64,000 nucleotides of DNA from an archaeon (GTDB taxonomy: Archaea > B1Sed10-29 > JAVZDC01), in the NCBI GenBank assembly GCA_038874115.1, contig JAVZDC010000002.1, forward strand, positions 110,531-174,530, given 5' to 3'. Shown here piece after piece: positions 38,613-55,308 of the stretch. Positions within the stretch are counted from its first letter, which is position 1. The number at the start of each line of letters is the position of its first letter. The notes below the pieces were generated by a model, which ran no database searches, was not told the origin of the DNA, and saw nothing but the letters and a program-made list of their open reading frames with translations. The translations under genes and the position numbers were made by a program.

Positions 38613-38618
38613 GAAAAC

Positions 38619-39279: not shown

Positions 39280-39321
39280 ACCTAAATTTTATTTTTTAAA
39301 GCTTAATAATCTTTCGCGAGT

Positions 39322-39944: not shown

Positions 39945-39964
39945 TTAAATCTTTCCCCCGCTTT

Positions 39965-40249: not shown

Positions 40250-40280
40250 ACTTAATCCTTTCCATAATATATAAATTTTT

Positions 40281-40604: not shown

Positions 40605-40610
40605 AATTGT

Positions 40611-40973
40611 TCACCTCATCCTAGCCCTAGCTCTCATCATCGTATCTTCTGTTTCGATTCCCTCCATAGAAGGTTCTTTTCTCCAAGGTTTAACTATGGA
40701 TAGGTCGAATAAAACTTGTGTGAATCCAAATATAATGAATAAGTAAATGAACATCATCGGACCAAATATCTCAAAATGCTGGAATAGGAAGATATAAGCT
40801 AAAACCAAAGTAATGATTATTGTAACTGGCCCTCCACCAAACCTGTTTTTTACAAAACCAACAATAAACAGTAAAACCACGATTTTAAAAGCAAGAATAA
40901 GAAGGTCAAAATCAGATAAAACGTTCCCAAAAAGCTTTCCAATCAAAAATCCTTGAATATCTGGGAACCCCAT
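40611..40973 (-). CDS. hypothetical small membrane protein
   Basis: 120 aa, 3 TM helices, Arg-rich C-terminus (MMRARARMR); start 2 nt after the stop of the giant upstream gene. Confidence 0.5.
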   Translation of the reverse strand: MGFPDIQGFLIGKLFGNVLSDFDLLILAFKIVVLLFIVGFVKNRFGGGPVTIIITLVLAYIFLFQHFEIFGPMMFIYLFIIFGFTQVLFDLSIVKPWRKEPSMEGIETEDTMMRARARMR

Positions 40974-40974
40974 T

Positions 40975-43900
40975 TTAATCCTTGAAGTTACTTATTAAAG
41001 TTTCCAATTCTCCTGAATCTTTTGCGAATATCTTGTATCCTTGTGAATCAGACCAAATTATTCCGCTTTTAGGAATGTCTGCTGTACTGCCCCACTTATT
41101 TTTAAATATTGTTTGCGCATTTTGTTCGCACGTAGAGATACTTGTACAAATTGCCACAAATACACTTTTTATGTTGTCTGGGGGCGTAGTTCCAGATTTC
41201 CATAAGAAATTAACTTCTGCAGGAGATACTTTTTCAATCTTCGCAATTAAATTTATTATATTATTGTTAAGTTTCTCCTTTACATCTCGCGAGCATTCTC
41301 CGTTTCCTTGAACGCAGATTCCTTGAATTGTTGAGGATGTTAATGTAAGATAATTCTCCCCTATAGAGTCTTCATCAATGTATTTTAAAGATAGTGTTCC
41401 TCTAAGAGTTTTTTCTAAATTACTTATTAATTCCTCTAATTCCCCTTTATTTTTTCCAATGATGTATGTGTTCCATCCTTTTCTAAATATTATGTTAGCT
41501 TCGTACCTTCCAAGTTTATCAGATACTAGATGACATGGAGCTTTCTTATCTTCTCCTTCATTGATTATAGCTGATTCGTTGCATATCTTCACTATGATAG
41601 TAGGACCCAACTCGATTTCATTTTTTTGAGTTATTTCTTTTAAAGTTACATCCGTGTTCCATTGTGCTTTTAAAGCTTTTCCTAACTTCTGCAAAATACC
41701 GTCCTTTTCCGAGCCCCCTATTCCTTCAAAGTACACATGTACATAGATTGCTGGTGTTGTCGAAGAACTTAACGATTCGTTAAGTACAGGCCAAAATGCT
41801 TGTACTCCTCTCACATCATTTTCATTTTCATCCACAATTTCCAATCCTGAAAGTCTTCCTGTAGAATCAAACGAATTTATTTCAACGCAGGAATCAGTTA
41901 TTTTATTTATTTTAAGCTGATATTCCCCTGCCCCTTCAATTCTAGCCCCATTGTTTATTAATACACATTTTTCTTTTCCAGAGGTACAATAACCGCATGA
42001 GCTCTGAGATGCCATTTCACTTATTATCACAAACTCCGCTTTAGAATATATTTCTGTAAATATTCTTTGAATATCTTGCGGTGTCGCGCCTTTTAAAGCC
42101 ACAGATTTGAAAGTCACTGGATTTGGACTTGAGAAATTGTCCGTTTTCTCTATAATAAATGCTAAAATTTGATCAAGAGAGCAAAAGTTTGTTTCACAGT
42201 CAAGAGGAAGACCATACTTCTGAATCTTTAAAGGTTTAAAGTATCCTTCAGAAATTTCTTCAACACTCGGAGCTTTTGCCATTATCGTAAGTCGAATCGT
42301 GTATGCGGAGCTTATTTTTTTATTTGACTTAAACTCCTTTGACGCGTTAATAGTAATGTTTATGTTATTTATTTCAGACGCGCCAGCTTCCAATGTTTTC
42401 CCAAAACTATATTTTATCTCCGCTCCTTGTGTGTATTGAGAAAATGAAGAAATATATCCACTTGGGGATGCTCCTCCAGTCCCTTCGACTACCACTTTGG
42501 TAATGTCCACTTCTACATCCGGGTCGCATTTTTTGAGAGTTAGAGATACGGGATTAGATTCGGTACAATTATTGTCACGTGGTGCTTCAAAGCTTGCTTC
42601 TTTTGTCATAACTTTAGATACTGAGATCAAACAAGAATGAGTTTCCCTTGTTGAAACGTCTAGATTGATTGATTTGGTTGTTGGAATTTCTAGACAAGGA
42701 CTTGCTACTTTTTTTATCTGGCCTTCCTTTAAATTATCTCCTGAAAGATTTATTTCTATTTTTGTTCCTGGGTATGCTCGTACTTGGTCATCAAAATAAA
42801 TCTCTATCCGATCTCTCTTATATTTGTAATTATTCGAATATTCTGAACTTTTAATTTGAATCGTTCTTCCATCCATTGTAATTTTTCCTTCTACATGGTA
42901 TTGTTTTGGATTTATAGGGGTATTCAAACCCTCTTTATATACTTTTATCGAAAAGTTAGTAGTTAAATCAGTTATTTTTTCAGGTTCTATTTCAATTCTT
43001 ATCGAAGCTTGTGCAGAATAGTTTATTTTGGTCTCAGCTACTTTGTTATTGTCGACAAAAGAATGAATTATCACTTGCGGAGGTATTTTAGCCTCTGCTT
43101 CAATCTTTACAATTATTTTTTCCCCAGTTCTCCAATCTTTTAAACTTAATTTAACATCTGTTTCATTCGCTTCGTATTCCGATTCATCAATAGTCGTAAG
43201 AGTATTGTTAAATTCTCTTAATACCATCGTGGTTAAAAATTCAGTAGTAATTCCAGATAAAGTATTGCTTGTAATACTTATCTCAGATGAACTTCTGGTT
43301 GAACCCTCGTTTATAAATGAAATTGTTAAGTTGTACTTAGGTTCATTTTCTTTAATCTCTACAGCGTTTGGAGAATAGGAGTTACCTTTATAGTTCACTT
43401 CTGCTTTAACCATTATTGTTTTGTCCTCCAAACCTGGCTCCAAATTGCTTTCTCGTGAGATATAAAAGAATATCTTTTTCGTCCCCTTTTTCGGATCGCT
43501 AACTTTCGCGTCTCCTTTATACCAAGTAGCAGAGTATTCCAAAGTTACATTATCGTTGAAACAAGTTGTTTTTACTCTTATAGGTACACGCACCTCTAAA
43601 GTAGTATTTCTATATTCATCTGGGTATCCGGATATTACATACGTTACGCCAGACACCTCTGTCGATTGTGTGAAATCAGTCGGCTCGACTCTTCCAAATT
43701 CTAAACATCCACTACGTTCCTTTATAGAAAATTCTGCTTTATCTACAGGTTCATTATTTAAATCTGGGAGGGAAACTAAGAAATGTAAAACATATTGTTC
43801 TCCTACTGAAAGACTTTCTTCAACATTCCCATTGGTTGCTCTATCAAAATAGACTGTAAAGTTTACGAATGCAAGCTTCAAATCTATTGAAACATCTTTA

Positions 43901-45684
43901 GTTAACATACCTACGTCAATAATCCCTCCATATATTTTTCCTGTTGAAGTATTTCTCCAAGTTCCTTTTACTATTATGTTCGAGTATTCTGGAACTTCAA
44001 ATTCTACGTACCCATCGATCGATGTTTTACCGCTTGTAAGTTGAACGAGTTCTTGTTCTTCCCCAACTCTTTTATCAAAAAGTACTACTTCTGCATTCGA
44101 AAGTACTTCTTCGCTCTCTTTTTCTAAAACAGTTATTCCTATGGTATATTTTTTCCTTTCAATTTCTATAACTTTCCTAACAAGGGACCCTCCTTTCACT
44201 GTAACTTGGACGCAACTACTTGAATCATTAAACCTTATTGCTTTTACACAATATTCTCCGATAGGCACACCATTAAACATAACTTTTCCATCCACCCCTG
44301 TTTTTTCAGGTATGGAAGGAATTCCAAGTAATTGAGACTCATCTTTTGAAAATAATTTTACTTCAGCATCCTTTACAGGTATTTCAGTTCCTTTAAAAAT
44401 TACAGTTACCTTTATGTCTCCATACTCTCCAGAAGTAAGTTCCGTCAAATATATTTTTTTACTTTCGCCCCCAACTATTTCGAATTCAGTATAATTGTAT
44501 CCTTGTAAAAATACGCTAGCTCGGTAAGTTTCTCTCTTTTTTAATGCAATCTTTGCGACACCAGTTTCATCAGATTCTGCCTTACTAATTATATCGTTTC
44601 CTTTGAATACTGTAATATATGCTCCTCCAACCGGAACTTCCCCACTTTGAGTTTGCTTAAAAGTATAGATGTAAGTTGGAGATGTTGTATTTACTTGAAT
44701 TAAAATCTCTAAAGTTCCGCCAGTTATGTTAGCAACCCAAGTTTTGTTTTCATCAATGTAACTGTCATAATTTGTATTATTTTCCCCTGCTTCAACTTTT
44801 ACTGAGAAGTTAGCATTCTTTGGAACTTTGAGGTTTGCAATTCCCAAATAACCTTGAGAATACCCTGTTGTCTCTGAAGAATAAGTGTAGTTAGTTAATG
44901 GATTTACAAGTTTTACCGTGACTCCAGCCAAAGGATTATTATTTTCATCAACAACTTTTACTTTGACTTTCACATATTCTTCTTTTATTTCTTTCCGATC
45001 TAGTTTGATGCAAACTCCAGAATCTATTTTATTTTTTATGTACTCTCCAGGCAGTAAATCAGTCTCATAGTTCAAAGTTTCAAATTTATAAGAATAATTT
45101 ATTACAAAATTACTCATTACACAAGTAGCATTTTCCTCACAAGAAAGAACGTCTTTTTCTTTAACCACTCTTTCTCCATCATAGGCGGAGTATTTAATTG
45201 AACTTATGCTTAATTCTGAAAAATCTGCTGTTTCAAAGCAAAGTTGTACTGATGTTCTTGAAAGCTCGCCTTGGCATTTTAAATATATTGGAATCTGGTA
45301 CGTATCTGATTCTACAGTTATCGTAGATTCGTAATTTAAACATCCTGTTTTTTCCACCTGAATAGAATATTCACCAGGTTCTGCTGAGAGTTCAACGATC
45401 CCATCAACAGTTTCTCCACTATATACTGTTTTCCCATTCAAATCCTTTAAAGTTATTGATGCGCCAGATATTCCTATTTTTGTAATGTTGTCTTTTACAA
45501 ATATGGAAAATTGTATTTCTTTTGGGGTAGGTGCTCCTCCTCCCCCTCCAGCCAGCATTAAATAAATTCCAACAAGTATTGCAACGAATATTCCAGCAAA
45601 AACAGGTAAAGAAGGTATTCCCTTTTTTTCCAAAGGATCTATAATTGAATAGATTGGAACACCTTTCGAATCTAAAAAATCCAA
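40975..45684 (-). CDS. giant (1569 aa) surface adhesin-like protein with prepilin-like N-terminal anchor and Ig-like/prealbumin-like beta-sandwich repeats
   Basis: N-terminus EKKGIPSLPVFAGIFVAILVGIYLML (basic, KG, hydrophobic helix) then Gly5 linker; many beta-rich repeats (e.g. VKVKVVDENNNPLAGVTVKLVNPLTNYTY); last long gene of the pilus-like operon. Confidence 0.8.
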   Translation of the reverse strand: MDFLDSKGVPIYSIIDPLEKKGIPSLPVFAGIFVAILVGIYLMLAGGGGGAPTPKEIQFSIFVKDNITKIGISGASITLKDLNGKTVYSGETVDGIVELSAEPGEYSIQVEKTGCLNYESTITVESDTYQIPIYLKCQGELSRTSVQLCFETADFSELSISSIKYSAYDGERVVKEKDVLSCEENATCVMSNFVINYSYKFETLNYETDLLPGEYIKNKIDSGVCIKLDRKEIKEEYVKVKVKVVDENNNPLAGVTVKLVNPLTNYTYSSETTGYSQGYLGIANLKVPKNANFSVKVEAGENNTNYDSYIDENKTWVANITGGTLEILIQVNTTSPTYIYTFKQTQSGEVPVGGAYITVFKGNDIISKAESDETGVAKIALKKRETYRASVFLQGYNYTEFEIVGGESKKIYLTELTSGEYGDIKVTVIFKGTEIPVKDAEVKLFSKDESQLLGIPSIPEKTGVDGKVMFNGVPIGEYCVKAIRFNDSSSCVQVTVKGGSLVRKVIEIERKKYTIGITVLEKESEEVLSNAEVVLFDKRVGEEQELVQLTSGKTSIDGYVEFEVPEYSNIIVKGTWRNTSTGKIYGGIIDVGMLTKDVSIDLKLAFVNFTVYFDRATNGNVEESLSVGEQYVLHFLVSLPDLNNEPVDKAEFSIKERSGCLEFGRVEPTDFTQSTEVSGVTYVISGYPDEYRNTTLEVRVPIRVKTTCFNDNVTLEYSATWYKGDAKVSDPKKGTKKIFFYISRESNLEPGLEDKTIMVKAEVNYKGNSYSPNAVEIKENEPKYNLTISFINEGSTRSSSEISITSNTLSGITTEFLTTMVLREFNNTLTTIDESEYEANETDVKLSLKDWRTGEKIIVKIEAEAKIPPQVIIHSFVDNNKVAETKINYSAQASIRIEIEPEKITDLTTNFSIKVYKEGLNTPINPKQYHVEGKITMDGRTIQIKSSEYSNNYKYKRDRIEIYFDDQVRAYPGTKIEINLSGDNLKEGQIKKVASPCLEIPTTKSINLDVSTRETHSCLISVSKVMTKEASFEAPRDNNCTESNPVSLTLKKCDPDVEVDITKVVVEGTGGASPSGYISSFSQYTQGAEIKYSFGKTLEAGASEINNINITINASKEFKSNKKISSAYTIRLTIMAKAPSVEEISEGYFKPLKIQKYGLPLDCETNFCSLDQILAFIIEKTDNFSSPNPVTFKSVALKGATPQDIQRIFTEIYSKAEFVIISEMASQSSCGYCTSGKEKCVLINNGARIEGAGEYQLKINKITDSCVEINSFDSTGRLSGLEIVDENENDVRGVQAFWPVLNESLSSSTTPAIYVHVYFEGIGGSEKDGILQKLGKALKAQWNTDVTLKEITQKNEIELGPTIIVKICNESAIINEGEDKKAPCHLVSDKLGRYEANIIFRKGWNTYIIGKNKGELEELISNLEKTLRGTLSLKYIDEDSIGENYLTLTSSTIQGICVQGNGECSRDVKEKLNNNIINLIAKIEKVSPAEVNFLWKSGTTPPDNIKSVFVAICTSISTCEQNAQTIFKNKWGSTADIPKSGIIWSDSQGYKIFAKDSGELETLISNFKD

Positions 45685-45797
45685 GAGATCAAACCATTTG
45701 TCCTCTATCGAATAATAAATTTCTTTTAAATTCGTAAGACCACCTTTATCATGTTCTATTTTCTAATGCCACCATAGTATATAAAATTTTTTCTTTT

Positions 45798-46601
45798 TTA
45801 GCAACTTGATGGTGTAATCGATATCGTGGTTGTTATGTATTCAATTGTTTGGTCTGGATTGGAATAACGGAATATTATTTTAGTTAATCCTTCTATTCCT
45901 TGGGAAATTCCAACTATTTCAACTCTTGATGCTTCGGCCTCTGCTTTCATTTGTCCGCAACTACCATCATTTTTAGCTGCAATGTATGATTTCTCCAATC
46001 TCTTACAAAGAGGAGCACTAGAAACCCAAGTTCTGCTTTCCGGCCCAATAAAGATCGTTAATTTATCTTTCTCATTATTTTTATTTTTAAAAGTAACTTT
46101 AAAAATGTCTTTCCCTTTAAATTTACTTCCATCTATTTCTATTTTAACCTTTCCTTCCGAGTCACAACTTAGTGTTATAGGTTTAATTTCACCTAAAGTC
46201 TTTGAAAGTTGGTCATAAAAATTAGCCGGATATTCTGGAGAATATTCTGTCGCACTTTCAACGCTAGACCCCATACCTTGATAGATTCCGTTTCCCCCTA
46301 AGGTTAAATCATTTTCTAACTTTCTTATAATCATGTATTTTAAATTCTCCGAGCTGCCATACTTGGAAAGGTCGAGCGTAAAATTAGAAGCTATCGCATT
46401 TTCAATTTGAGCGTAAATGTGGCTTTCAACAGTTGCTTTTATCATCTTTGCAGAATTACTTTGAAAAGAGTTTTCTTGGAAATTAATTAGACTTTTTGAT
46501 ACTCTTACATTATTCTCCACGACTACTACTGCTGTAAAACTTGCTATCAAAACCAGCAAGGTTCCAATCAAGGCACTAAAAAGAGAAAAACCTCTTCTCA
46601 T
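45798..46601 (-). CDS. prepilin-like protein (class III signal peptide), 267 aa
   Basis: N-terminus MRRGFSLFSALIGTLLVLIASFTAVVVV (basic, RG, hydrophobic helix), as in archaeal type IV pilin precursors. Confidence 0.6.
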   Translation of the reverse strand: MRRGFSLFSALIGTLLVLIASFTAVVVVENNVRVSKSLINFQENSFQSNSAKMIKATVESHIYAQIENAIASNFTLDLSKYGSSENLKYMIIRKLENDLTLGGNGIYQGMGSSVESATEYSPEYPANFYDQLSKTLGEIKPITLSCDSEGKVKIEIDGSKFKGKDIFKVTFKNKNNEKDKLTIFIGPESRTWVSSAPLCKRLEKSYIAAKNDGSCGQMKAEAEASRVEIVGISQGIEGLTKIIFRYSNPDQTIEYITTTISITPSSC

Positions 46602-46752
46602 GAATATTTCTCTAATGCATGAAAATAAAGGAAGGGGTTTGTGCGAATTGTGCTGCGCCTGAAAACATTGGTTTTATGACTGCAAATAAAAGTATTGTTG
46701 CAATGATGATTATTATTAAGATATAAAGTGGAGTCCATTCCATGGAAATTAC

Positions 46753-47175
46753 CTAACATCCCTGTGGTAAAGTAGGTGTACCGCCTATGCCTACGACACA
46801 TTTATTAGTTCCACAAACAGCATAGACATCCACAGGTACATTTTTCTGCGGGGAGAATGTATTCTCATCGCAGTTTGCAATATTATTATTGATATTACTC
46901 GCGCATTCGAATTCTATATCTTTTCCCGCAGCTTCAACAAACTTTGAGGATCTAGCTGAATACGAGGTTCCAGTTTTTAATTTTACTGGAGTTGAACTTT
47001 TTTGAATATTGCAAGGTGAATTTGCTGCAGACTGAAGCAATGCTGCTACGGTTGTATCGAACTCTTGGCCAGGTACTGTTATTCCTCCAAGAATACTTAA
47101 TAAAATCGCTAAAATCATTACCGCAACTACCGCAGCAATCATAAGTTGGAACGTATCGAATGCTTGTCCTTTCAC
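46753..47175 (-). CDS. archaeal type IV pilin-like protein (class III signal peptide)
   Basis: N-terminus MKGQAFDTFQLMIAAVVAVMILAILLSILGG: KGQ motif then hydrophobic helix, matching the archaeal prepilin signal; Cys-containing C-terminal domain. Confidence 0.7.
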   Translation of the reverse strand: MKGQAFDTFQLMIAAVVAVMILAILLSILGGITVPGQEFDTTVAALLQSAANSPCNIQKSSTPVKLKTGTSYSARSSKFVEAAGKDIEFECASNINNNIANCDENTFSPQKNVPVDVYAVCGTNKCVVGIGGTPTLPQGC

Positions 47176-47190
47176 GCATTCACCTCCAAT

Positions 47191-47403
47191 TCACCATTTA
47201 TAATACGGACATATCTTACATTCTTCAGGTACTTGTTCAACAGTCCAAGGTTTTCCTATTAATTCTTTAACTTGCGGTGGGCAATCAGGGAAAGAACCAT
47301 AACAATTTGGAAACTTTTTTGCTTTTTTTATTTCTTCATAAATTTTTTCTCCTTCTTTTTTTCTTTTTATGATCGGTGTCCTTCTTCTTTTACCTCCACC
47401 CAT
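47191..47403 (-). CDS. hypothetical small basic Cys4 protein (70 aa)
   Basis: Highly basic N-terminus (GGGKRRRTPIIKRKK), four Cys (C-x5-C…C-x2-C); sits between two pilin genes. Confidence 0.45.
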   Translation of the reverse strand: MGGGKRRRTPIIKRKKEGEKIYEEIKKAKKFPNCYGSFPDCPPQVKELIGKPWTVEQVPEECKICPYYKW

Positions 47404-47443
47404 AACTTCACTACGTGTTTTTTATATAAAAATCTTTCTTTTT

Positions 47444-47842
47444 TTAAGAACAACTATCTGAGCAAAGATATATTGTACATCCTTGTTGTGAGTCGCACTT
47501 TGTAGATATTGGAATTTTCATATTGTATTTTGCAGTACAAAGGAATCCTTCACAATCTACTTTATTTCCGCACCTGTTCCTAATTCCTATAGATGTATCT
47601 GGGAAAAAATGTTGTATGCTTTTAGATGATATTGTTTCTCCTTTTTTTAGTTCAAAATCCCGAGATATGCATTGGGATGCTACTCTTACAGAATAAGCTT
47701 CCCCAACAATCTCTTTTAATAATGCTCCTGTTTCAAAAGGTTTTGGAGTAGAACTTATATATGCAAAGATTATTGCTGCTAAAGCGATAGCAAAAATTCC
47801 AGCAAGCATCATTTCAAAAATCGTAAAAGCTTGTCCTTTCAT
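47444..47842 (-). CDS. archaeal type IV pilin-like protein (class III signal peptide)
   Basis: N-terminus MKGQAFTIFEMMLAGIFAIALAAIIFAYI; paralogue of 46753..47175; overlaps the platform gene stop by 4 nt. Confidence 0.7.
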   Translation of the reverse strand: MKGQAFTIFEMMLAGIFAIALAAIIFAYISSTPKPFETGALLKEIVGEAYSVRVASQCISRDFELKKGETISSKSIQHFFPDTSIGIRNRCGNKVDCEGFLCTAKYNMKIPISTKCDSQQGCTIYLCSDSCS

Positions 47843-49881
47843 GCGATCCCTGTAATTAATAAAGAACTAAAGTACGTTGCGGCAAGGAAAAGAATGACAG
47901 ATATTGGTAAAGTCTTTGCAATGTTTATCTTTAAAGCAAGGTCGTTTTCCCCTTCCTCTATTTTACTTGTAAAATAGGTTAAAAGCAAAGTAATTTCAAC
48001 AACATAGATTCCAAGTAAAATTATGAAGAATTCAACACTTGGTAACTGCGAGACTTCAAACTTTCCAATACTAAAGAATCCAGGAATGTTTTTCATTTTG
48101 ATTCCAGTTTGTTGAGCAGACAAACCAGAAAGAGATTGAATTATTAATTTCTGCATGCTTCCAGTGATTCCAAGTACTAAAGGAGCAATTAGAAAAGCAA
48201 TCGATTTCATCATGGCAGTTATTTCTTCCAACATGTTTTTTATTTTTGTTTGTAATTTTCTCAAATCTTTTATTTGTAAAGAAAGAGATATAAGAGCTTT
48301 TGCTGCTTGTTGAACTCCTAAACTAGCAGCATCTAAAACAATCCTAAAACTGTTTTTTATAAAGTCTGAGTATACTTCTCTTAAAGATCCGTATGCAGGG
48401 TCAAAAAAAGCACTCTGAACAGTCATTCCCAAGTTTCTTATGTTTTCACTAGTTTTTGCAAAAACTTTTGCAATTTTTGTGTGTTTTAAAAAGTTAGCTG
48501 AATATTCCATCGCTTCTTCCAAAGGTCTATTTTCCCCAAGTCTTGAAGCAACAACATAGATCCCATCTTCAAATTCTCCTTCCATTGTCATTATTTCTAA
48601 CTGCAGTTTTCTTCTTTCGATAGAAATTCCGTAAAGATAGATTGAAACAAAAGCACTAAAACTTAAGAATACCCCTGCAATCCAACCAAAATGAACGTAT
48701 CCAGTCAAATCAGCATGAGTTTGTGAGTATTGCATAGCAAGGAATGGTTCCAAAATAAAGAAACAACAAAAGAAAATAGTAAATGCAACAATGGATGCAA
48801 TAAAGACAGCAGGTACTTCAGACTTACCTATCCTCATGTAACCTTTTTTTGGAAGTTTGGGAAGATTTTCCGGAATTTTTGGTGGCACGTATACAGGAGG
48901 TCTCATACTTAAAATGTTTTTAGCAAAGATCATCGTTCCAAAAGGAATCGCAGCAACATAAAGCCCAGTTATAAGCAAAGGATTGCTTAAAAAAGGCAAG
49001 TTTCCAATCATCGCTCCTATCGGTAAAAGAATTATAAGCATTAAAGGCAGTAGGACTCCAACATAGTAAAGGTAGATCGTTGGTTGTCTCATCTTTGTTA
49101 TGTACCCGTTCATTTCTTCAGAAAGGCCAGCTAAAACATCTTCTAAAGCCTTATCTAAAATTGCATGTCTCTTTCCTTCGTCTATTTCTATTATCGAAGA
49201 TCTTATTAACATCAAGGCATGTTTAAACTGTTCACTATAGTTTCCCCATTTATACGCTAAAGCATCTAACGCTTCCTCCATAGATCTATATATTCCAAAT
49301 TTTACATCCCAACTTAATTTCTTTAAATCTTCTGCAATCTTTCCCCTTCCATGCATTCCTGCAAACTCAACTGCCTTTTCCAAGTTTGGCGTTAGTTTCA
49401 TCGAAATTATAAGATAATTTACTATCTCGGGTATACTTAGCAAAGCTTCTATCTTTTGAGCTTTTGCTGCGTTTATTATATATCGGTTATAATAGTTTGC
49501 AAGAATGAAAGGAATTAATATTAAAACTGGAGCACACATCGTAAAAATAAACATGTCTAGCTCTTGGGTAATAAAAACCATGTATCCAAGAAAACCCAGG
49601 ATTGGCAAAACAAGTATTAAAGAGATTTGTGTTACAAAGATAGGAACAGCATTTACTTCCGCAGGAGTTAAAGGCCAACCTAAAAACTCTAGAGCAGAAG
49701 CAAATTCTTTATTTTTAAACTCATTTTTTGCTTTTACGTATTTTGCAGCCATTTTTGCCAATCTTATGTAAGAATTTTCTTTGATTTGTACTTTTGGTTT
49801 TTCTATAAGCTCTTTTGAAAATGCTTCTGCAAAACCTCCAAGCGTATTTTCTTCTTCAAACCTTCTTCTTCGCTCTCTCAA
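47839..49881 (-). CDS. type IV pilus / secretion membrane platform protein (FlaJ/TadC-like, two T2SS-F-type domains)
   Basis: 680 aa polytopic membrane protein with two cytoplasmic helical domains each followed by TM helices; immediately downstream of and overlapping the secretion ATPase gene. Confidence 0.7.
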   Translation of the reverse strand: MRERRRRFEEENTLGGFAEAFSKELIEKPKVQIKENSYIRLAKMAAKYVKAKNEFKNKEFASALEFLGWPLTPAEVNAVPIFVTQISLILVLPILGFLGYMVFITQELDMFIFTMCAPVLILIPFILANYYNRYIINAAKAQKIEALLSIPEIVNYLIISMKLTPNLEKAVEFAGMHGRGKIAEDLKKLSWDVKFGIYRSMEEALDALAYKWGNYSEQFKHALMLIRSSIIEIDEGKRHAILDKALEDVLAGLSEEMNGYITKMRQPTIYLYYVGVLLPLMLIILLPIGAMIGNLPFLSNPLLITGLYVAAIPFGTMIFAKNILSMRPPVYVPPKIPENLPKLPKKGYMRIGKSEVPAVFIASIVAFTIFFCCFFILEPFLAMQYSQTHADLTGYVHFGWIAGVFLSFSAFVSIYLYGISIERRKLQLEIMTMEGEFEDGIYVVASRLGENRPLEEAMEYSANFLKHTKIAKVFAKTSENIRNLGMTVQSAFFDPAYGSLREVYSDFIKNSFRIVLDAASLGVQQAAKALISLSLQIKDLRKLQTKIKNMLEEITAMMKSIAFLIAPLVLGITGSMQKLIIQSLSGLSAQQTGIKMKNIPGFFSIGKFEVSQLPSVEFFIILLGIYVVEITLLLTYFTSKIEEGENDLALKINIAKTLPISVILFLAATYFSSLLITGIA

Positions 49882-52144
49882 GAGCTTCCCTCCTAGCGAT
49901 AAGCGGTTTTACCTGGTTTTCTAAAAACCAGTCTTTCCATTCTTGAATTGCCATTTGATAATCAACCATTCCCAAATCTTCTCTCTGTCTTTCCAGTATT
50001 AAAAGCCAAGCATCATTAGCTGGAACAGTGTATTTCGCTTCCAATAATTCTGGTATTTGGTATTTATTCTTTTGGTCTACTGCAAATTGTTTTATTTCTG
50101 CCCTTGCGTTTATGTCTTCCCAGATTTGTTCAAAAGTTAGTCCTCTTCTTGCACTAATTCTTTTAAAAATCTCAGACTTTCTACAATTTTCTTCTAAAAC
50201 CTTAAAAGAATCTTTATCTACATTGTATTCTATAAGTTGCAAGAAACCATTTTCTTTTTCCGGATCTGAATACCAATGTTTTTCCACACTCGTTATTTCC
50301 ACAACTCTCCTATGTCTTTTCAAAGACCCCTTAAACCTTATTGGAGCACAAACTACACAAACGTCTGTTGCTTTGAAAGAAGTATTTGGAACTCCTAAAT
50401 CGTTTACGATTCTGTCCCATACTGAATATGCGGATTCTCCGTGGATAGTTCCCATAACTACGTTACCTACAGCACCAACTCTCATAGCTTCGTACAAAAC
50501 TAAAGCTTCTTTAGATCTAACTTCTCCAACTATCAATACTGAATCTCCAAGCCTTAAAGCAGTCCTTAATGCTTCTTCTGGCGGTACTTCAGCACTTGTT
50601 CTAGATACTGCTATTGCTGATTGCGTTTTTAATCTTTGAATGTTAAATCCAAGCCCTTTCATGAATTCGACTGGAAGTTCTAAAGTGTCTTCTAGAGTTA
50701 GAATTCTTAAACTTGGCAATATTTCCAACATTAAAGCTTGAAGAAGAGATGTTTTCCCTGCCCCTCTTGAACCAACAACAAGAGTGGATGCTTGCGCATC
50801 TATTAAATAAGATAATAAACCAGCTACTTTGCTATCTATCATTTTTACATCTATAAATTGTTGTAATGTCCACGGAGTTTCTTTATGCAATCTTAGTGCA
50901 AACGCAGTACCATCAGGGGATAAAGGTGGTCCAATAACTGCAATTCTTGTTTGTAAATCTCTTAAATCAAAATCCAAGACCGGATGGGCTTCATCAAAAG
51001 GTCTTCCAGAAAGGGCTCTAAACCTAGATACCAAAGTTTTTGCTTCTTCTTCAGTAAAAACAACGTTTGTTTGGCAAGAACCATATTCTCCATGCACAAC
51101 GTAGACAGGTTTGGTTCCAAGAGGAGCATCGATATAGACATCAGTTAACTTTCTATCAGAAAGCAACAATTCCAATATCCCGTAACCAACAGTATATCTG
51201 CAAACAATTCCAGCAATTTCCGAAGCTTCTTTTCCAGTAATTTTTATTCCATGTTTATTGGCCAAATCTATAATCGTTGTTTCATAAACTCCAAGCAAAT
51301 AGTTCCTTAGTTCTTCCGGATTAGCAAAATGTAATCCTTCAGGAGAATAAGTTGAAACAATATCTTTAGTCTTCGAAAGTAAAAAGTATTTTTCTGGAGG
51401 CAAGTTGTATTCTGGAGGGGCAATATAATAAAGATATTGAACTTTTGCTGGATGTTTGTATATATTTACAGTCGCATCTTTTACATAATATTGGTCCACT
51501 AATTCTATTTCTTCTGGAGTTGCGAAAAAAACTCTGGATGCAACAAAAGCAGGTTTTATTTGAGCTTCAAATAAACTATGATAAATAGTTCTTCCTGGCG
51601 GAATTCTCCCAAGCTTTTTTATAATTTCTTTTGTTTTTTGAATTAGAGTAGTTTTTTCAAAAGCAGCTAACATGAAATATAGTGTATTTAAGTATATGTC
51701 GCTACATTCTTTTTCTATTCCTTGAAGGCCGGCATTCCTTTCATTCTCTCTTTTCAAAGCTTCAACCAAAGTTAAATATGCTCGGAGAGGGTCTGTTTTT
51801 AAAAGATCTTGAGCAATGGAGACGACTAATGAATACCGTCCAGGAATTTCTCCTTCGCATTGAGGATGGCCAAGTCTTGAAGAATTCCACACTCCTTCCC
51901 TATAAAATAAGTTCCCCAATTCTCCGATTTCTTTAAGCATTTTTGTTTGTTCTTCAGAATATATTATTTCATAAACTTCAGCTAGAACAACCATGTCTGC
52001 ATTTGTTCTAGCCAACTTTTCTATAACTTCCCTCATGCATTGTGGAAAATCAGCAACAGAAGGGCCCCACTCGCTTCCTCTATAATCAATGATTAAATAC
52101 CTCTTTGTTCCTTCTGTTTTTATTGTGAAATCATGCGCAGCCAT
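49856..52144 (-). CDS. type II/IV secretion-system ATPase (FlaI/VirB11/PilB superfamily) with long N-terminal extension
   Basis: 762 aa; Walker A VVGSRGAGKTSLLQAL, downstream conserved Asp/Glu and His boxes typical of secretion ATPases. Confidence 0.85.
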   Translation of the reverse strand: MAAHDFTIKTEGTKRYLIIDYRGSEWGPSVADFPQCMREVIEKLARTNADMVVLAEVYEIIYSEEQTKMLKEIGELGNLFYREGVWNSSRLGHPQCEGEIPGRYSLVVSIAQDLLKTDPLRAYLTLVEALKRENERNAGLQGIEKECSDIYLNTLYFMLAAFEKTTLIQKTKEIIKKLGRIPPGRTIYHSLFEAQIKPAFVASRVFFATPEEIELVDQYYVKDATVNIYKHPAKVQYLYYIAPPEYNLPPEKYFLLSKTKDIVSTYSPEGLHFANPEELRNYLLGVYETTIIDLANKHGIKITGKEASEIAGIVCRYTVGYGILELLLSDRKLTDVYIDAPLGTKPVYVVHGEYGSCQTNVVFTEEEAKTLVSRFRALSGRPFDEAHPVLDFDLRDLQTRIAVIGPPLSPDGTAFALRLHKETPWTLQQFIDVKMIDSKVAGLLSYLIDAQASTLVVGSRGAGKTSLLQALMLEILPSLRILTLEDTLELPVEFMKGLGFNIQRLKTQSAIAVSRTSAEVPPEEALRTALRLGDSVLIVGEVRSKEALVLYEAMRVGAVGNVVMGTIHGESAYSVWDRIVNDLGVPNTSFKATDVCVVCAPIRFKGSLKRHRRVVEITSVEKHWYSDPEKENGFLQLIEYNVDKDSFKVLEENCRKSEIFKRISARRGLTFEQIWEDINARAEIKQFAVDQKNKYQIPELLEAKYTVPANDAWLLILERQREDLGMVDYQMAIQEWKDWFLENQVKPLIARREALERAKKKV

Positions 52145-52657
52145 TTTAACATTCCTCGTTCCGAATTCGTGAAAGCGACTTTTTTTACTTTTAAAATCTT
52201 GCTATTTTTTTCTATTTTTATAACTCTACTCTCTTTTATAAATCTTTATCCTCTTAAAGTCTTTGTGGCTAAAGGCGTCTCTTTTTTATTAACTCTTTTT
52301 GGTGTACCGCATGTTTTAATCTTCTCAAGCCCAGAGCCAAGCATTTTTGTAGATAATGTCGAAGCCCAAATAAAGGACTTATGTGTTGGACATATGGAAA
52401 TTGCGTTGATTTGTTCGATAATCTTAGCTTGTGATGATCGTTCTGTTAAATCTCGAGTTCTTGGTGCCTTTTGTTCTATTCCTTTTGTTTTTTTCTTAAA
52501 TCCTTTAAGAATCTCGGTCGTTTTGTTTTTTGGGCATTATTTCTCCTGGCCTTTTGCAGACTTTATTCATGATGTTCTTTTCAGGCTCACTCTTTTTATT
52601 GTAATTCTTATTTACTTTCTGATTTGGTATGTTTTATCCTGGAAGTTTAAGTTATAA
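52133..52657 (+). CDS. possible small polytopic membrane protein with Cys-Ser / Asn-x-x-Arg motifs (exosortase/archaeosortase-like?), or non-coding
   Basis: 174-aa ORF in the 550-bp divergent intergenic region; TM helices, EIALICSIILAC and FLNPLRISV. May be spurious (AT-rich DNA gives hydrophobic ORFs) or may start internally. Confidence 0.3.
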   Translation: MRSHFNIPRSEFVKATFFTFKILLFFSIFITLLSFINLYPLKVFVAKGVSFLLTLFGVPHVLIFSSPEPSIFVDNVEAQIKDLCVGHMEIALICSIILACDDRSVKSRVLGAFCSIPFVFFLNPLRISVVLFFGHYFSWPFADFIHDVLFRLTLFIVILIYFLIWYVLSWKFKL

Positions 52658-54407: not shown

Positions 54408-54408
54408 T

Positions 54409-55304: not shown

Positions 55305-55308
55305 ATGA

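What the first reader, a model, noticed from the sequence alone, without database searches (positions are those of the whole stretch)
40975..52144. Type-IV-pilus-like assembly operon ending in a 1569-aa adhesin-like giant protein
Seven co-directional, tightly spaced or overlapping genes: a secretion ATPase with an unusually long N-terminal extension, a FlaJ/TadC-like double-domain platform, two paralogous KGQ-type prepilins (MKGQAF…), a small basic Cys4 protein, a 267-aa RG-type prepilin-like protein, and a 1569-aa protein whose N-terminus also looks like a class III signal (EKKG-IPSLPVFAGIFVAIL) followed by many beta-sandwich repeats. A giant protein carrying a pilin-like N-terminus suggests a pilus-tip or pilus-integrated adhesin, which has no well-characterised archaeal counterpart. 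No prepilin peptidase (FlaK/PibD-type) is encoded in the window.
Basis: partly seen in the sequence, partly recalled or inferred. Interest (0 to 1): 0.8.

Follow-up and report, generated by a model that had tools for sequence, protein, structure and literature searches.

The report
DPANN pilus-like machine with giant adhesin
This is a real type-IV-pilus-like assembly gene cluster of a tiny symbiotic-type (DPANN) archaeon, and it belongs to a larger conserved surface-apparatus locus. The giant protein looks like a membrane-anchored, fast-evolving adhesin with its own unusual N-terminal tag, not a normal pilin.

Summary
The seven genes exist as described, all on the minus strand. The ATPase is a GspE/FlaI-family secretion ATPase with extra N- and C-terminal domains. 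The 680-aa protein is a divergent 9-segment T2SSF platform. The "KGQ" and "RG" proteins carry class-III-type N-termini conserved in dozens of relatives.

The finding is only part of a ~23-kb supercluster conserved in Micrarchaeota and Diapherotrites (Iainarchaeota). The supercluster adds:
- an unannotated 43-aa mini-protein;
- four more pilin-like genes;
- a catalytically intact mini-archaeosortase;
- a second giant protein with an LPxxP-TM-basic C-terminal sorting signal;
- small membrane proteins downstream of the giant.

In relatives the usual order is archaeosortase → RG → giant, divergent from the ATPase operon. The window's "seven-gene operon" comes from inversion of the central segment.

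The giant's N-terminus is not a canonical class III signal. It is a 45–50-aa, net-acidic, strongly conserved module with two KG(I/V)P repeats and an invariant Gly before a single TM. It shows no profile similarity to the cluster's pilins. The N-terminal β-sandwich stalk is conserved and the C-terminal ~620 aa are nearly orphan.

No archaellum genes and no prepilin peptidase occur in the window.

Verdict: a new variant of a known kind, of moderate to high interest.

The parts
49856..52144 (-). Secretion ATPase (762 aa), GspE/FlaI/TadA superfamily. It has a ~290-aa N-terminal extension and a ~110-aa C-terminal helical extension.
   Evidence: Pfam T2SSE 5.4e-20. NCBIfam FlaI 148 bits (cutoff 550) and TadA 138 bits. 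PDB 2OAP 115 bits, CpaF 90, FlaI 84. AF2 pLDDT 77.8. Foldseek 2OAP 4e-25. Identity is 55-72% over full length in Micrarchaeota and Diapherotrites.
47839..49881 (-). Platform protein (680 aa), a divergent T2SSF/TadC/FlaJ-like polytopic membrane protein.
   Evidence: Pfam T2SSF 20 bits, below the cutoff of 25.2, with 2 stretches. T2SSF is hit in 20 of 25 orthologs, best 8.9e-7. Nine hydrophobic segments. It overlaps the ATPase gene and follows it in 51 of 69 loci. No PDB sequence match.
47444..47842 (-). pA1, a pilin-like protein (132 aa), MKG|QAF + hydrophobic helix.
   Evidence: Family consensus is [KR]GQ-AF(D/S)xFKLLIAAVVA with 3 conserved C-terminal Cys, in 54 loci. No Pfam family. Weak full-length match to the archaeal pilus subunit 8FJ5, E 0.92.
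47191..47403 (-). Basic Cys4 70-aa protein, a lineage-specific insert between the two pA genes.
   Evidence: No Pfam hit. No homolog in 83 related loci.
46753..47175 (-). pA2, a pilin-like protein (140 aa), paralog of pA1.
   Evidence: 67 direct phmmer hits in related loci. Same N-terminal motif.
46612..46752 (-). Unannotated mini-protein (43 aa from Met 46743): EWTPLY + TM + KPMF. It is either a Flp-like mini-pilin or a single-TM accessory.
   Evidence: Homologs sit at the same position in at least 12 related loci, usually with a [KR]G leader. No Pfam hit.
45798..46601 (-). RG protein (267 aa): MRRG|FSLF(T/S)(P/A)L(V/I)GT class-III-like N-terminus with a variable body (257-743 aa in relatives). 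It lies next to the giant in most relatives that have it.
   Evidence: Motif found in 12 loci, HMM hits in 15. No Pfam hit in 6 members.
40975..45762 (-). Giant protein (1569 aa from the TTG at 45684; the frame is open to ~45762). It consists of a conserved acidic N-terminal module, a single TM, a Gly/Pro linker, a beta-sandwich stalk (to ~900) and a near-orphan Cys-rich C-terminal ~620 aa.
   Evidence: CarboxypepD_reg 2.7e-15 and SpaA 2.7e-8. N-module alignment has invariant E9, E34, G37 in 29 orthologs. One TM. Residues 1 to ~900 are conserved and 950-1569 are not. The C-terminal region has only 6 distant hits in 1.84e9 proteins. AF2 pLDDT 65.5 with no fold match.
39633..40973 (-). Four small polytopic membrane proteins (120, 107, 94 and 103 aa). 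They are conserved downstream of the giant in the closest relatives. The 107-aa one starts KTKG|FLFFTPF.
   Evidence: Orthologs are in the same order in L003, L006, L007 and L009. No Pfam hit.
38388..39636 (-). Four further small proteins (104, 113, 108 and 74 aa). They share similar C-terminal tails; an N-terminal TM is predicted in three (104, 113, 108 aa), none in the 74-aa one. Lineage-specific.
   Evidence: Sequences. One hit or none in related loci. TM prediction.
52133..52657 (+). Mini exosortase/archaeosortase-family protein (174 aa; the start is possibly at 52169), divergent from the ATPase gene.
   Evidence: TIGR04178 42.2 bits against a cutoff of 23. ArtB, ArtD and pacearchaeosortase models score far below their cutoffs. 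Pfam Exosortase_EpsH 9.8e-10. C84, E89, N123, R126 and H146 are invariant in 53 of 53 sequences. Present in 51 of 71 loci.
52697..53833 (+). Cys-rich secreted protein (378 aa) with a Sec-like N-terminus. Lineage-specific.
   Evidence: No Pfam or NCBIfam hit. No homolog in related loci.
53865..55824 (+). Four conserved pilin-like ('minor pilin') genes in fixed order: p180 (MKGQESAPIELL), p170 (MRG|ISVWLF), p128 (MKGYIGPLGDDIPG) and p171 (MNKAQAALFDALFF).
   Evidence: Families are found in 52, 39, 39 and 35 loci. All four are present in 33 of 50 loci with enough flank, always in the order p180-p170-p128-p171. No Pfam or NCBIfam hit.
55801..60126 (-). Second giant protein (1441 aa). It has a Sec-like N-terminus and a C-terminal tripartite signal, ...LPSVPEGIEF-TM-RKR. 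It is the likely archaeosortase substrate.
   Evidence: LP(S/W/G)xP + TM + basic tail occurs in 7 of 8 homologs. No Pfam hit.
60107..61155 (-). 196-aa protein with a signal peptide and a C-terminal TM + basic tail, followed by a 152-aa 4-TM protein. Both are co-directional with the 1441-aa gene.
   Evidence: Sequences. TM prediction. No homologs in related loci.

Best explanation
The locus encodes a type-IV-filament (pilus-like) machine typical of Micrarchaeota/Iainarchaeota-type DPANN archaea. It is embedded in a ~23-kb conserved cell-surface supercluster (about 38388-61155).

Shown:
- An N- and C-terminally extended GspE/FlaI-family ATPase and a divergent T2SSF platform are encoded next to six families of proteins with conserved [KR]G-(Q/F) class-III-type N-termini. 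These are two pA paralogs, p180, p170, p128, p171 and RG. A 43-aa mini-protein is also present.
- A catalytically intact mini-archaeosortase and a 1441-aa protein with an LPxxP-TM-basic C-terminal signal belong to the same conserved neighbourhood.

Inferred:
- The ATPase and platform polymerise pA (and perhaps the mini-protein) into an adhesive filament.
- A four-member minor-pilin set plus RG primes or caps this filament, as in bacterial T4P and T2SS.
- The 1569-aa protein is a surface adhesin. It is held by a single N-terminal TM helix, projects a conserved beta-sandwich stalk, and presents a rapidly diverging Cys-rich distal region.
- Its conserved, acidic 45-50-aa N-terminal module (two KG(I/V)P repeats, invariant Gly before the TM) is a dedicated targeting or docking tag. 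The tag couples the giant to this apparatus and is not an ordinary prepilin leader.
- The archaeosortase cleaves and re-anchors the second giant protein.
- The prepilin peptidase is supplied from elsewhere in the genome.
- The likely role is attachment to a host cell or surface.
For: Machine:
- T2SSE 71.8 bits.
- afGspE is the best sequence and fold match, ahead of FlaI.
- T2SSF is hit in 20 of 25 platform orthologs, and the platform has 9 TM segments.

Pilin-like set:
- N-terminal motifs are conserved in 35-54 loci per family.
- They are clustered in the window.

Conservation of the whole supercluster in 83 loci from Micrarchaeota and Diapherotrites, including the complete AR10 genome:
- platform 51/69;
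- pA 46/60;
- four minor pilins 33/50;
- giant 31/52;
- archaeosortase 51/71.

Giant:
- The N-module is conserved in 29-32 orthologs, with E9, E34 and G37 invariant.
- It has a single TM.
- The N-terminal ~900 aa are conserved and the C-terminal 620 aa are near-orphan.
- All 6 distant C-terminal relatives are 1.6-2.3-kaa giants with the same N-module, and two appear (by eye) to end in FG-GAP-like repeats.
- 27 N-glycosylation sequons and 26 Cys.

Archaeosortase:
- The Cys/Arg/His triad is invariant in 53 of 53 sequences.
- The signature model is above its cutoff.
- An LPxxP-TM-basic tail is present in 7 of 8 orthologs of the 1441-aa protein.

Literature:
- Archaeal 'system 2' TFF loci have N-extended ATPases, a single platform gene and large adhesin-like proteins (10.64898/2026.04.22.720090).
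- Micrarchaeon Mia14 has T4P loci, with its FlaK-like peptidase encoded elsewhere (PMC5498576).
Against: - No filament, processing or expression data exist.
- No prepilin peptidase is present in the window.
- The window's platform scores below Pfam's cutoff (20 bits against 25.2).
- The pilin-like families match no Pfam, NCBIfam or PDB family. 'Pilin' therefore rests on N-terminal motifs and context.
- The role of the giant's N-module is pure inference. The invariant Gly directly before the TM fits equally well with prepilin-type cleavage.
- In 26 of 30 loci the giant is co-directional with the archaeosortase and not with the ATPase. Its functional partner could be the sortase and not the pilus machine.
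- The 1441-aa putative substrate was detected in only 8 loci.
- The ATPase clade (Makarova clade 1, 2 or 4) was not determined.
Confidence: 0.55

Rival explanations
1. The giant is a true, extremely large 'modular pilin'. A prepilin peptidase cleaves after the invariant Gly (…KG|IPSLP), which removes an unusually long leader. The TM helix is then incorporated at the tip (or along) the filament by the ATPase/platform, which makes the giant a pilus-tip adhesin.
For: - Gly is invariant at the position directly before the hydrophobic segment in 29 orthologs.
- K, R or H is at -2 in most orthologs.
- The topology (leader, Gly, TM, exported body) is that of class III signals.
- An alternative TTG at 45633 would even give MEKKG|IPSLP.
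- The conserved N-terminus with a variable C-terminus matches an anchored-at-N adhesin.
- Precedents exist: bimodular pilins of Streptococcus sanguinis (PMC8179133), class-III-signal sugar-binding proteins of the Sulfolobus bindosome, and predicted PilY-like adhesins in archaeal T4P loci (PMC4858521).
Against: - The leader is 45-50 aa, strongly conserved and net acidic (K+R 2-6 against D+E 7-10). Class III leaders are short and basic.
- The residue at -2 is Ala in several orthologs.
- Pro sits at +2 and +5, and a Gly/Pro linker follows the TM directly, so there is no extended pilin alpha-1 helix.
- hhalign gives no similarity to pA or p128 N-termini (probability 2-3%).
- The usual gene partner is the archaeosortase.
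Confidence: 0.25
2. The machine does not build long pili. It builds a short pseudopilus or bindosome-like assembly device (T2SS/Bas-like). This device inserts, positions or extrudes the giant surface proteins through the S-layer. The four 'minor pilins', RG and the small membrane proteins form that device.
For: - The system has many pilin-like proteins relative to a simple pilus: 2 pA, 4 minor pilins, RG and the mini-protein.
- Two giant surface proteins and a sortase are tightly linked to it.
- The ATPase is very highly conserved (mean column identity 68%), which suggests a housekeeping envelope role.
- The NCBIfam bindosome BasE model matches over residues 210-682.
- The 2026 TFF preprint discusses S-layer-like proteins that may let filaments traverse the envelope.
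Against: - BasE scores only 96.6 bits (cutoff 1000), lower than FlaI or TadA.
- No substrate-binding-protein domains are present.
- Two well-conserved pA paralogs resemble major pilins in size.
- Thin filaments possibly representing pili were seen on the Micrarchaeon ARM-1 (PMC11329633).
Confidence: 0.15
3. The giant is a conventional S-layer or envelope protein exported by an ordinary Sec signal. It merely neighbours a pilus operon.
For: - Beta-sandwich-rich, glycosylation-sequon-rich giant proteins are typical archaeal envelope proteins.
- Gene order varies between genomes.
Against: - The N-terminus has ~45 conserved residues before a 19-25-residue hydrophobic helix and no Sec-type n/h/c architecture.
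- There is no hit to S-layer domains. The Micrarchaeota S-layer protein carries PF05123 (10.1101/2021.04.28.441871), and the giant does not.
- Linkage to the cluster is kept in 31 of 52 loci despite rearrangements.
Confidence: 0.03
4. The ATPase/platform pair is an archaellum FlaI/FlaJ motor, and archaellins are encoded elsewhere.
For: - The best NCBIfam hit by score is the FlaI equivalog (147.7 bits).
- JGI annotates some homologs as FlaI.
- A second T2SSF-like gene sits at the window edge.
Against: - The FlaI score is far below the 550-bit cutoff.
- afGspE beats FlaI in both sequence and fold searches.
- No archaellin or FlaC-H/X homologs were found among 57 ORFs scanned.
- The adjacent conserved genes are pilin-like and not archaellins.
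- DPANN mostly lack archaella (PMC5498576).
Confidence: 0.02

Closest known systems
Archaeal 'system 2' / clade-2 (euryarchaeal) type IV pili, e.g. the Haloferax volcanii PilB3-PilC3/PilA and PilB4 loci (Makarova 2016, PMC4858521; 2026 TFF preprint 10.64898/2026.04.22.720090)
   Same: - The ATPase has N- (and C-) terminal extensions.
- There is a single large platform gene.
- Several class-III-signal proteins sit beside membrane proteins.
- Large adhesin-like or S-layer-like proteins are in the locus.
- The peptidase is encoded elsewhere.
- The best solved ATPase relative is the non-archaellar A. fulgidus GspE.
   Different: - None of the pilin families matches PilA/Pilin_N or any Pfam model.
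- +1 Gln ('KGQ') pilins resemble clade-1 Epd pilins instead.
- There is a fixed four-gene minor-pilin block.
- A mini-archaeosortase is linked to the locus.
- The giant carries a unique N-terminal module.
- Clade membership of the ATPase was not tested phylogenetically.
Methanococcus maripaludis Epd pili (clade/system 1; EppA-dependent pilins)
   Same: - Pilin-like proteins have Gln at +1 after [KR]G.
- There are many minor pilins (at least 5).
- Small candidate major pilins and large adhesin-like proteins are in the locus.
- DPANN are reported to carry system-1-like loci.
   Different: - System 1 has two split platform genes and often EppA and a MinD/FleN ATPase in the locus. Here there is one 680-aa platform, with no EppA and no MinD.
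- The Class_IIIsignal Pfam model is not hit.
- No DUF2341 adhesin domain is present.
Bacterial T4aP/T2SS minor-pilin quartet plus PilY1 (FimU-PilVWX-PilY1; GspH-I-J-K)
   Same: - Four conserved minor pilin-like genes lie in fixed order beside a major-pilin pair.
- A very large non-canonical adhesin gene is linked to them.
- p170 and RG have G|F(T/S)L… N-termini reminiscent of bacterial G|FTLIE.
   Different: - There is no sequence or profile homology.
- There is no secretin and no outer membrane.
- PilY1 uses a Sec signal and has a beta-propeller. The giant has an N-terminal TM anchor, a beta-sandwich stalk and a different, near-orphan head.
Modular (bimodular) type IV pilins, e.g. Streptococcus sanguinis PilB/PilC (PMC8179133), and class-III-signal sugar-binding proteins of the Sulfolobus bindosome (Bas system)
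   Same: - The concept is the same: a bulky functional module is grafted onto an N-terminal prepilin-type helix and handled by a T4P-like machine.
- RG (257-743 aa) fits this well.
   Different: - The giant is 3-10 times larger.
- Its leader is long, acidic and conserved.
- It shows no similarity to pilin N-termini, and cleavage is untested.
Archaeosortase/exosortase systems (ArtA/PGF-CTERM, ArtB/VPXXXP-CTERM; Haft 2012, from my own knowledge)
   Same: - The mini-enzyme has the signature domain and an invariant Cys/Arg/His.
- A neighbouring large secreted protein ends in motif + TM + basic tail (LPxxP-type).
   Different: - It is only ~170 aa and falls below the cutoffs of all named subfamilies (ArtB 32 against 150, ArtD 21 against 125, pacearchaeosortase 16 against 80).
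- I found no report of systematic linkage to a type IV pilus ATPase operon, or of an upstream position to an N-terminally anchored giant.

Membership tests
Type IV filament (TFF) superfamily machinery | Secretion ATPase of the GspE/PilB/FlaI/TadA family | tested here: met
   - Pfam T2SSE 71.8 bits against a cutoff of 24.9.
- PDB afGspE 2.3e-32.
- Foldseek 2OAP 4.4e-25, TM(target) 0.79.
Type IV filament (TFF) superfamily machinery | Polytopic platform protein with T2SSF (PilC/GspF/TadC/FlaJ) domains, encoded with the ATPase | tested here: met
   - The window protein alone is sub-threshold: 20 bits against 25.2, with 2 stretches.
- 20 of 25 orthologs hit T2SSF, best 8.9e-7.
- It has 9 hydrophobic segments.
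- It overlaps the ATPase gene and follows it in 51 of 69 loci.
- There is no PDB sequence match.
Type IV filament (TFF) superfamily machinery | Filament subunits with class III (prepilin) signal: short basic leader, G/A at -1, hydrophobic helix | tested here: met
   - The motif is met for pA1, pA2, p180, p170, p171 and RG, with family-wide conserved [KR]G-(Q/F) + hydrophobic helix.
- p128 has an atypical 12-residue GFIGPIGDDLPS segment before the helix.
- No match to any pilin Pfam, NCBIfam or PDB family was found.
Type IV filament (TFF) superfamily machinery | Dedicated prepilin peptidase (Peptidase_A24: FlaK/PibD/EppA) | tested here: not met
   - None was found among 57 window ORFs scanned with Pfam.
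- The rest of the genome could not be searched.
- In archaea the peptidase is usually encoded elsewhere (PMC4858521). In Mia14 it is MIA14_0570, away from the T4P loci (PMC5498576).
- Absence from the window therefore does not exclude membership.
Archaellum | FlaI equivalog ATPase, plus archaellins (FlaA/B) and FlaF/G/H and FlaX or FlaCDE accessory genes | tested here: not met
   - The NCBIfam FlaI equivalog scores 147.7 bits against a cutoff of 550.
- No archaellin or Fla accessory Pfam hits occur in the window.
- The conserved neighbours are pilin-like families.
Epd-type (clade/system 1) pili | Two separate platform (TadC-like) genes, with EppA (9-TM peptidase) and MinD/FleN often in the locus | tested here: not met
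   - There is one 680-aa platform gene, in the window and in relatives.
- No peptidase or MinD-like gene is in the window (Pfam scans).
Epd-type (clade/system 1) pili | Pilins with Gln at +1 (KGQ…) | tested here: met
   - pA, p180 and p171 families have [KR]GQ.
- The Pfam Class_IIIsignal model is not hit.
Archaeal system 2 / clade 2 T4P | N-terminally extended ATPase, single platform gene and large adhesin-like proteins in the locus | tested here: met
   - The ATPase has ~290 extra N-terminal residues relative to the region aligned with afGspE and FlaI.
- There is a single platform gene.
- Two giant proteins are present.
Archaeal system 2 / clade 2 T4P | ATPase branches within Makarova clade 2 in a phylogeny | not tested
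- The only indirect evidence is that afGspE is the closest solved relative.
Class III signal peptide (applied to the 1569-aa giant) | Short, positively charged leader | tested here: not met
   - The conserved N-terminal region is 42-49 aa, with K+R 2-6 against D+E 7-10.
Class III signal peptide (applied to the 1569-aa giant) | Gly/Ala at -1 with Lys/Arg at -2, directly before a hydrophobic helix | tested here: inconclusive
   - Gly is invariant (G37 of alignments A2 and A3).
- The residue at -2 is K, R or H in most orthologs but Ala in several.
- Pro is nearly invariant at +2 and +5.
Class III signal peptide (applied to the 1569-aa giant) | Homology of the N-terminal segment to pilin N-termini of the same system | tested here: not met
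   - hhalign of the giant N-module against p128 gives probability 2.9%, and against pA 1.8%.
Class III signal peptide (applied to the 1569-aa giant) | Cleavage by an A24 prepilin peptidase | not testable with these tools
   - This needs N-terminal proteomics or an in vitro cleavage assay.
Exosortase/archaeosortase family (52133-52657) | Signature domain with catalytic Cys, Arg and His | tested here: met
   - TIGR04178 scores 42.2 bits against a cutoff of 23.
- C84, R126 and H146 (plus E89 and N123) are invariant in 53 of 53 sequences.
Exosortase/archaeosortase family (52133-52657) | Cognate substrates with C-terminal motif + TM + basic cluster | tested here: met
   - The 1441-aa neighbour ends in LPSVPEGIEF-TM-RKR.
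- LP(S/W/G)xP-TM-basic occurs in 7 of 8 orthologs.
- Cleavage was not tested.
Exosortase/archaeosortase family (52133-52657) | Membership of a named subfamily (ArtB, ArtD, XrtM, pacearchaeosortase) | tested here: not met
   - All score far below their cutoffs: ArtB 32.4 against 150, ArtD 21.3 against 125, XrtM 22.7 against 125, pacearchaeosortase 15.7 against 80.

The most novel reading that the evidence does not exclude
Micrarchaeota and Iainarchaeota possess a hybrid surface-display apparatus not yet described. In it, a type-IV-filament machine and a dedicated mini-archaeosortase act together on giant, hypervariable adhesins.

The giant's long, acidic, doubly repeated KG(I/V)P module with its invariant Gly would be a new kind of filament-targeting (prepilin-like) signal. 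That would make 1.5-2.8-kaa proteins the largest pilus-borne 'modular pilins' known. They would be the host-recognition organ of these symbionts.

The shared [LIV]PSxP-before-TM box of the giant, p128 and the sortase substrate would then be a common recognition element.
Probability: 0.2. Interest if true: 0.85.

Novelty: new variant of a known kind. Interest (0 to 1): 0.6.

Why it matters
Micrarchaeota and Iainarchaeota are ultra-small archaea with reduced genomes. Most appear to live attached to host cells, and how they recognise and hold on to hosts is unknown.

This locus is one of the most conserved non-housekeeping gene sets in these lineages. The ATPase is 55-72% identical across two phyla. 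The locus combines three things:
- a pilus-type motor;
- a fixed set of pilin-like proteins;
- two giant surface proteins, of which the 1569-aa one has a distal region that diverges to the point of being orphan.

That is the pattern expected of a host- or substrate-recognition organ under diversifying selection.

The systematic pairing with a minimal archaeosortase, and the giant's unusual conserved N-terminal module, are concrete and testable leads. Cultured Micrarchaeota (A_DKE, Mia14, ARM-1) are available for such tests. These leads could extend what counts as a substrate of type IV filament machines in archaea.

Tried and rejected
1. Word-index homology search with the alignment of giant N-modules returned only 9 short fragments, so it gave no view of the taxonomic spread.
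2. Word-index search with the giant's C-terminal 620 aa returned nothing, not even the protein itself. The exhaustive search then found 6 distant giants.
3. AF2 of the C-terminal region with a 7-sequence alignment gave pLDDT 65.5. Foldseek against PDB gave no hit at E<=1e-3, only generic cadherin/Ig-like noise. No function was assigned.
No structure was obtained for RG or the minor pilins.
5. hhalign of the platform profile against the second T2SSF-like protein at 63276-63944 was uninformative (probability 0.7%).
6. PDB profile searches for the platform and pA families found nothing significant.
7. Four exact-match look-ups meant to see beyond the window end failed. Whether a second pilus or archaellum locus starts at 63.3 kb is unknown.
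8. The Cys4 70-aa protein was considered as a conserved component and rejected. It has no homolog in 83 loci.
9. The giant was considered as the Micrarchaeota S-layer protein and rejected. That protein carries PF05123 (10.1101/2021.04.28.441871), and the giant does not.
10. The arCOG01314/arCOG02884 'novel secretion system' of Makarova 2015 (PMC5898192) was considered. Its components are unrelated (vWA, MoxR, DUF4350).
11. Any of the small membrane proteins was considered as a cryptic A24 peptidase. They have no GxGD-type motif and no Pfam hit.
12. Supplementary tables of the Mia14 paper did not list the T4P gene details needed to match the loci.

Full report
**Observation.** The window is an archaeal contig with about 33% G+C. 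It carries a split rpoA/rpoB, EF-2/EF-1α, Nre and PolB genes. The ATPase is identical in NCBI MAG GCA_038873445.1 and in a Logan assembly.

All seven genes of the finding are present on the minus strand at the stated coordinates and are tightly packed:
- ATPase, 52144-49856;
- platform, 49881-47839;
- pA1, 47842-47444;
- a 70-aa Cys4 protein, 47403-47191;
- pA2, 47175-46753;
- the 267-aa 'RG' protein, 46601-45798;
- the 1569-aa giant, 45684-40975.

Three additions belong to the same array.
- A conserved 43-aa gene (46743-46612; EWTPLY-TM-KPMF) lies between pA2 and RG. It has homologs at the same position in at least 12 related loci.
- The co-directional array continues through eight small membrane-protein genes, down to 38388.
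- The giant's frame is open for 26 codons upstream of its TTG. Those codons encode residues conserved in orthologs. The real N-terminus is therefore longer, and initiation in this genome is probably non-canonical.

**The machine.**
- *ATPase, sequence evidence.* It hits Pfam T2SSE at 71.8 bits. It matches the NCBIfam FlaI, TadA and BasE models, all far below their cutoffs. Its closest solved relatives are the non-archaellar A. fulgidus GspE (2OAP, 115 bits), then CpaF and FlaI.
- *ATPase, structure evidence.* An AF2 model (pLDDT 77.8) gives the same order by Foldseek. The model shows about 290 extra N-terminal residues: an α/β unit, a helical bundle and a small β domain. It also shows a C-terminal helical extension.
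- *ATPase, conservation.* The whole protein, extensions included, is 55-72% identical in Micrarchaeota and Diapherotrites MAGs.
- *Platform.* The 680-aa protein scores below Pfam's T2SSF cutoff on its own (20 bits against 25.2). However, 20 of 25 orthologs hit T2SSF. The protein has nine hydrophobic segments and overlaps the ATPase gene.
- *Not an archaellum.* No archaellin or Fla accessory gene was found among 57 ORFs scanned. No prepilin peptidase was found either. The archaellum reading is not supported.

**The wider locus.** A scan of species-representative genomes with an ATPase alignment gave 186 confirmed relatives. The best 80 loci are all from Micrarchaeota, Diapherotrites or unclassified DPANN (plus a few evidently mis-binned contigs). 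They include the complete AR10 genome.

Iterated HMM searches of the window's proteins against all ORFs of these loci reveal a canonical organisation:

[small TM genes < giant < (RG <) mini-archaeosortase <] [ATPase > platform > pA > pA > (mini-protein) > p180 > p170 > p128 > p171 >] [second giant <]

Frequencies, normalised for available flank:

| Component | Loci with component / loci with enough flank |
|---|---|
| Platform | 51/69 |
| pA | 46/60 |
| All four of p180, p170, p128, p171 | 33/50 |
| Giant | 31/52 |
| Archaeosortase | 51/71 |

The window contains every one of these:
- the mini-archaeosortase at 52133-52657;
- p180, p170, p128 and p171 at 53865-55824;
- the second giant at 60126-55801.

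Its order equals the canonical one with the central segment (archaeosortase-ATPase-platform-pA-pA) inverted. The 'seven-gene operon ending in the giant' is therefore a lineage-specific rearrangement. In 26 of 30 loci that have both genes, the giant lies directly downstream of, and co-directional with, the archaeosortase.

**Pilin-like proteins.** Each family has a conserved class-III-type N-terminus:
- pA: [KR]GQ-AF(D/S)xFKLLIAAVVA;
- p180: [KR]GQE(E/S)AP(F/I)ELLIAV;
- p170: M(L)G-F(T/I)LSK(I/L)NLLIL;
- p171: [KR]GQ-AA(I/V)TDALYFLLIV;
- RG: [KR]G-FSLFTPLVGT;
- p128: [KR]G-FIGPIGDDLPSLIP and then the helix, which is atypical.

Within the window such N-termini occur only between 40281 and 55824. 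None of these families matches a Pfam, NCBIfam or solved-structure family. The only trace is a non-significant full-length match of pA to an archaeal pilus subunit, 8FJ5.

The +1 Gln recalls EppA-dependent Epd pilins of Methanococcus. The single platform gene, the extended ATPase and the large adhesin-like proteins match what the 2026 TFF survey calls system 2 (10.64898/2026.04.22.720090). Makarova 2016 (PMC4858521) and Makarova 2019 (PMC6393860, Fig. 2A) had already noted large surface proteins and 'dark-matter' pilins in archaeal and DPANN T4P loci. The fixed quartet of minor pilin-like genes plus a large linked adhesin parallels the bacterial minor-pilin/PilY1 arrangement. That parallel is an analogy, not homology.

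**The giant.**
- *Domains.* Pfam finds CarboxypepD_reg and SpaA-type prealbumin-like β-sandwiches in the first ~500 residues. There is a single TM near the N-terminus.
- *Conserved and variable parts.* Comparison with 20+ orthologs shows that residues 1 to about 650-900 are conserved. Residues 950-1569 have no counterpart in the relatives' giants.
- *The C-terminal region.* It found nothing in the word-indexed search. It found only six distant hits in 1.84 billion representatives. All six are giants of 1.6-2.3 kaa carrying the same N-terminal module, and two appear (by eye) to end in FG-GAP-like repeats.
- *Structure of the C-terminal region.* The AF2 model was of low confidence and had no significant fold match.
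- *Polarity.* A conserved anchor and stalk with a hypervariable Cys-rich distal end carrying 27 sequons is what one expects of an adhesin fixed at its N-terminus.

**The giant's N-terminus.** Alignment of 29-32 orthologs shows a 42-49-residue module: YxxLE(D/E)K(W/Y/F)(Y/F)xxLDxLxxKG(I/V)P(V/I)Yxx(I/x)D(P/F)(I/L)Exx-G-(I/V)Px(L/F)P. It is followed by the TM and a Gly/Pro linker. E9, E34 and G37 are invariant, and P39 and P42 are nearly so.

Features that fit a prepilin signal:
- the invariant Gly directly before the helix;
- the topology.

Features that do not fit:
- the length, strong conservation and net negative charge of the 'leader';
- Ala at -2 in several orthologs;
- Pro at +2 and +5;
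- the absence of any profile similarity to pA or p128 N-termini.

It is equally unlike a Sec signal. I therefore treat it as a distinct targeting or anchoring module and leave cleavage open.

One curiosity remains unexplained. The (I/V)PS(L/F)P box before the giant's TM resembles two other boxes: the LPSL(I)P before the p128 helix, and the LPS(V/L/I)P before the C-terminal TM of the sortase substrate.

**Archaeosortase module.** The 174-aa protein passes the exosortase/archaeosortase signature model. It fails all named subfamily models. Cys84, Arg126 and His146 are invariant in 53 sequences.

The 1441-aa neighbour has a Sec-type N-terminus and ends in LPSVPEGIEF-TM-RKR. Seven of eight orthologs share LPxxP-TM-basic. 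This is the classic architecture of a sortase substrate. I found no paper linking an archaeosortase to DPANN pilus loci.

**Interpretation and limits.** The best-supported model is a pilus-like adhesion apparatus specific to these DPANN lineages. Two giant surface proteins are attached to it, genetically and probably physically. One is displayed through an N-terminal anchor module and the other through sortase processing.

What is shown is gene content, motif conservation, synteny and domain or fold assignments. What is inferred is filament formation, the roles of the minor pilins, the function of the N-module and the sortase-substrate pair.

The main rival is that the giant is a genuine, cleaved, pilus-borne modular pilin. 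Sequence alone cannot exclude it, and it would be the more remarkable outcome.

The ATPase's clade was not resolved, the peptidase was not located, and nothing could be learned about what lies beyond the window's right edge, where a second T2SSF-like gene begins.

Noticed in passing
window 46612-46752 (-): Unannotated conserved mini-gene (43 aa from the Met at 46743; EWTPLY-TM-KPMF). It sits between pA2 and the RG gene. Homologs at the same place in at least 12 related loci usually carry a [KR]G leader, so it may be a Flp-like mini-pilin. The 67-aa ORF 46598-46801 overlapping it in another frame is probably spurious.
   Followed up: partly
window 53865-55824 (+): Four additional pilin-like genes (p180, p170, p128, p171) lie outside the finding's coordinates. 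They are conserved in this fixed order in 33 of 50 related loci. p128 has a striking conserved GFIGPIGDDLPSLIP segment.
   Followed up: yes
window 52133-52657 (+) and 55801-60126 (-): A mini-archaeosortase (Cys/Arg/His invariant in 53 of 53) is divergent from the ATPase gene. A 1441-aa protein ends in LPSVPEGIEF-TM-RKR, a likely sortase/substrate pair. The two ORFs at 52133/52144 overlap head-to-head by 12 nt, so the sortase probably starts at 52169, as in the Logan gene call.
   Followed up: partly
window 46753-52657 versus loci L003-L082: Relative to the canonical order in relatives, the segment archaeosortase-ATPase-platform-pA-pA is inverted in this genome. This swaps which module follows which promoter.
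   Followed up: yes
window 45685-45762 (-): The giant's conserved N-terminal residues (…KEIYYSIEDKWFDL) lie upstream of the first ATG/GTG/TTG of the ORF. This implies a non-canonical start codon (ATA/ATT?) or a sequence error. A TTTATATA box sits about 25 nt further upstream.
   Followed up: partly
giant N-terminus, p128 N-terminus, 1441-aa C-terminus (window ~45600, ~54950, ~55900): All three have a [LIV]PS[LVIF](I)P box immediately before a TM helix. It is unclear whether this is a shared recognition element or coincidence.
   Followed up: no
window 40281-40604 (-): The 107-aa polytopic membrane protein downstream of the giant starts MKTKG|FLFFTPF. This resembles the RG N-terminus (RG|FSLFTPL). 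Orthologs start M(N)KGF… or MMKGQ….
   Followed up: partly
window 38388-39636 (-): Four small lineage-specific proteins (104, 113, 108 and 74 aa) share basic amphipathic C-terminal tails of the type LGKxxxKxLFK. Function unknown.
   Followed up: no
window 63276-63944 (-): A second T2SSF-domain protein (Pfam 4.5e-12; weak ArlJ/FlaJ NCBIfam hit) lies at the window edge. A second type IV filament locus may begin just outside the window. Look-ups to see beyond failed.
   Followed up: partly
window 17879-21727 (-): A 1282-aa protein with repeated right-handed beta-helix/NosD domains, another large probable surface protein, flanked by tRNA genes.
   Followed up: no
ATPase homologs P0046, P0056, P0098, P0119: Several orthologous ATPases in Micrarchaeota and Diapherotrites are ~1270-1300 aa. 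They carry intein/homing-endonuclease domains (PF14528, PF14890) inserted in the ATPase.
   Followed up: no
window 16593-16696 (-) and 22277-22368 (-): Two over-long tRNA genes (104 and 92 nt). One was called by ARAGORN with a 4-base 'tgga' anticodon, so they are probably intron-containing archaeal tRNAs.
   Followed up: no
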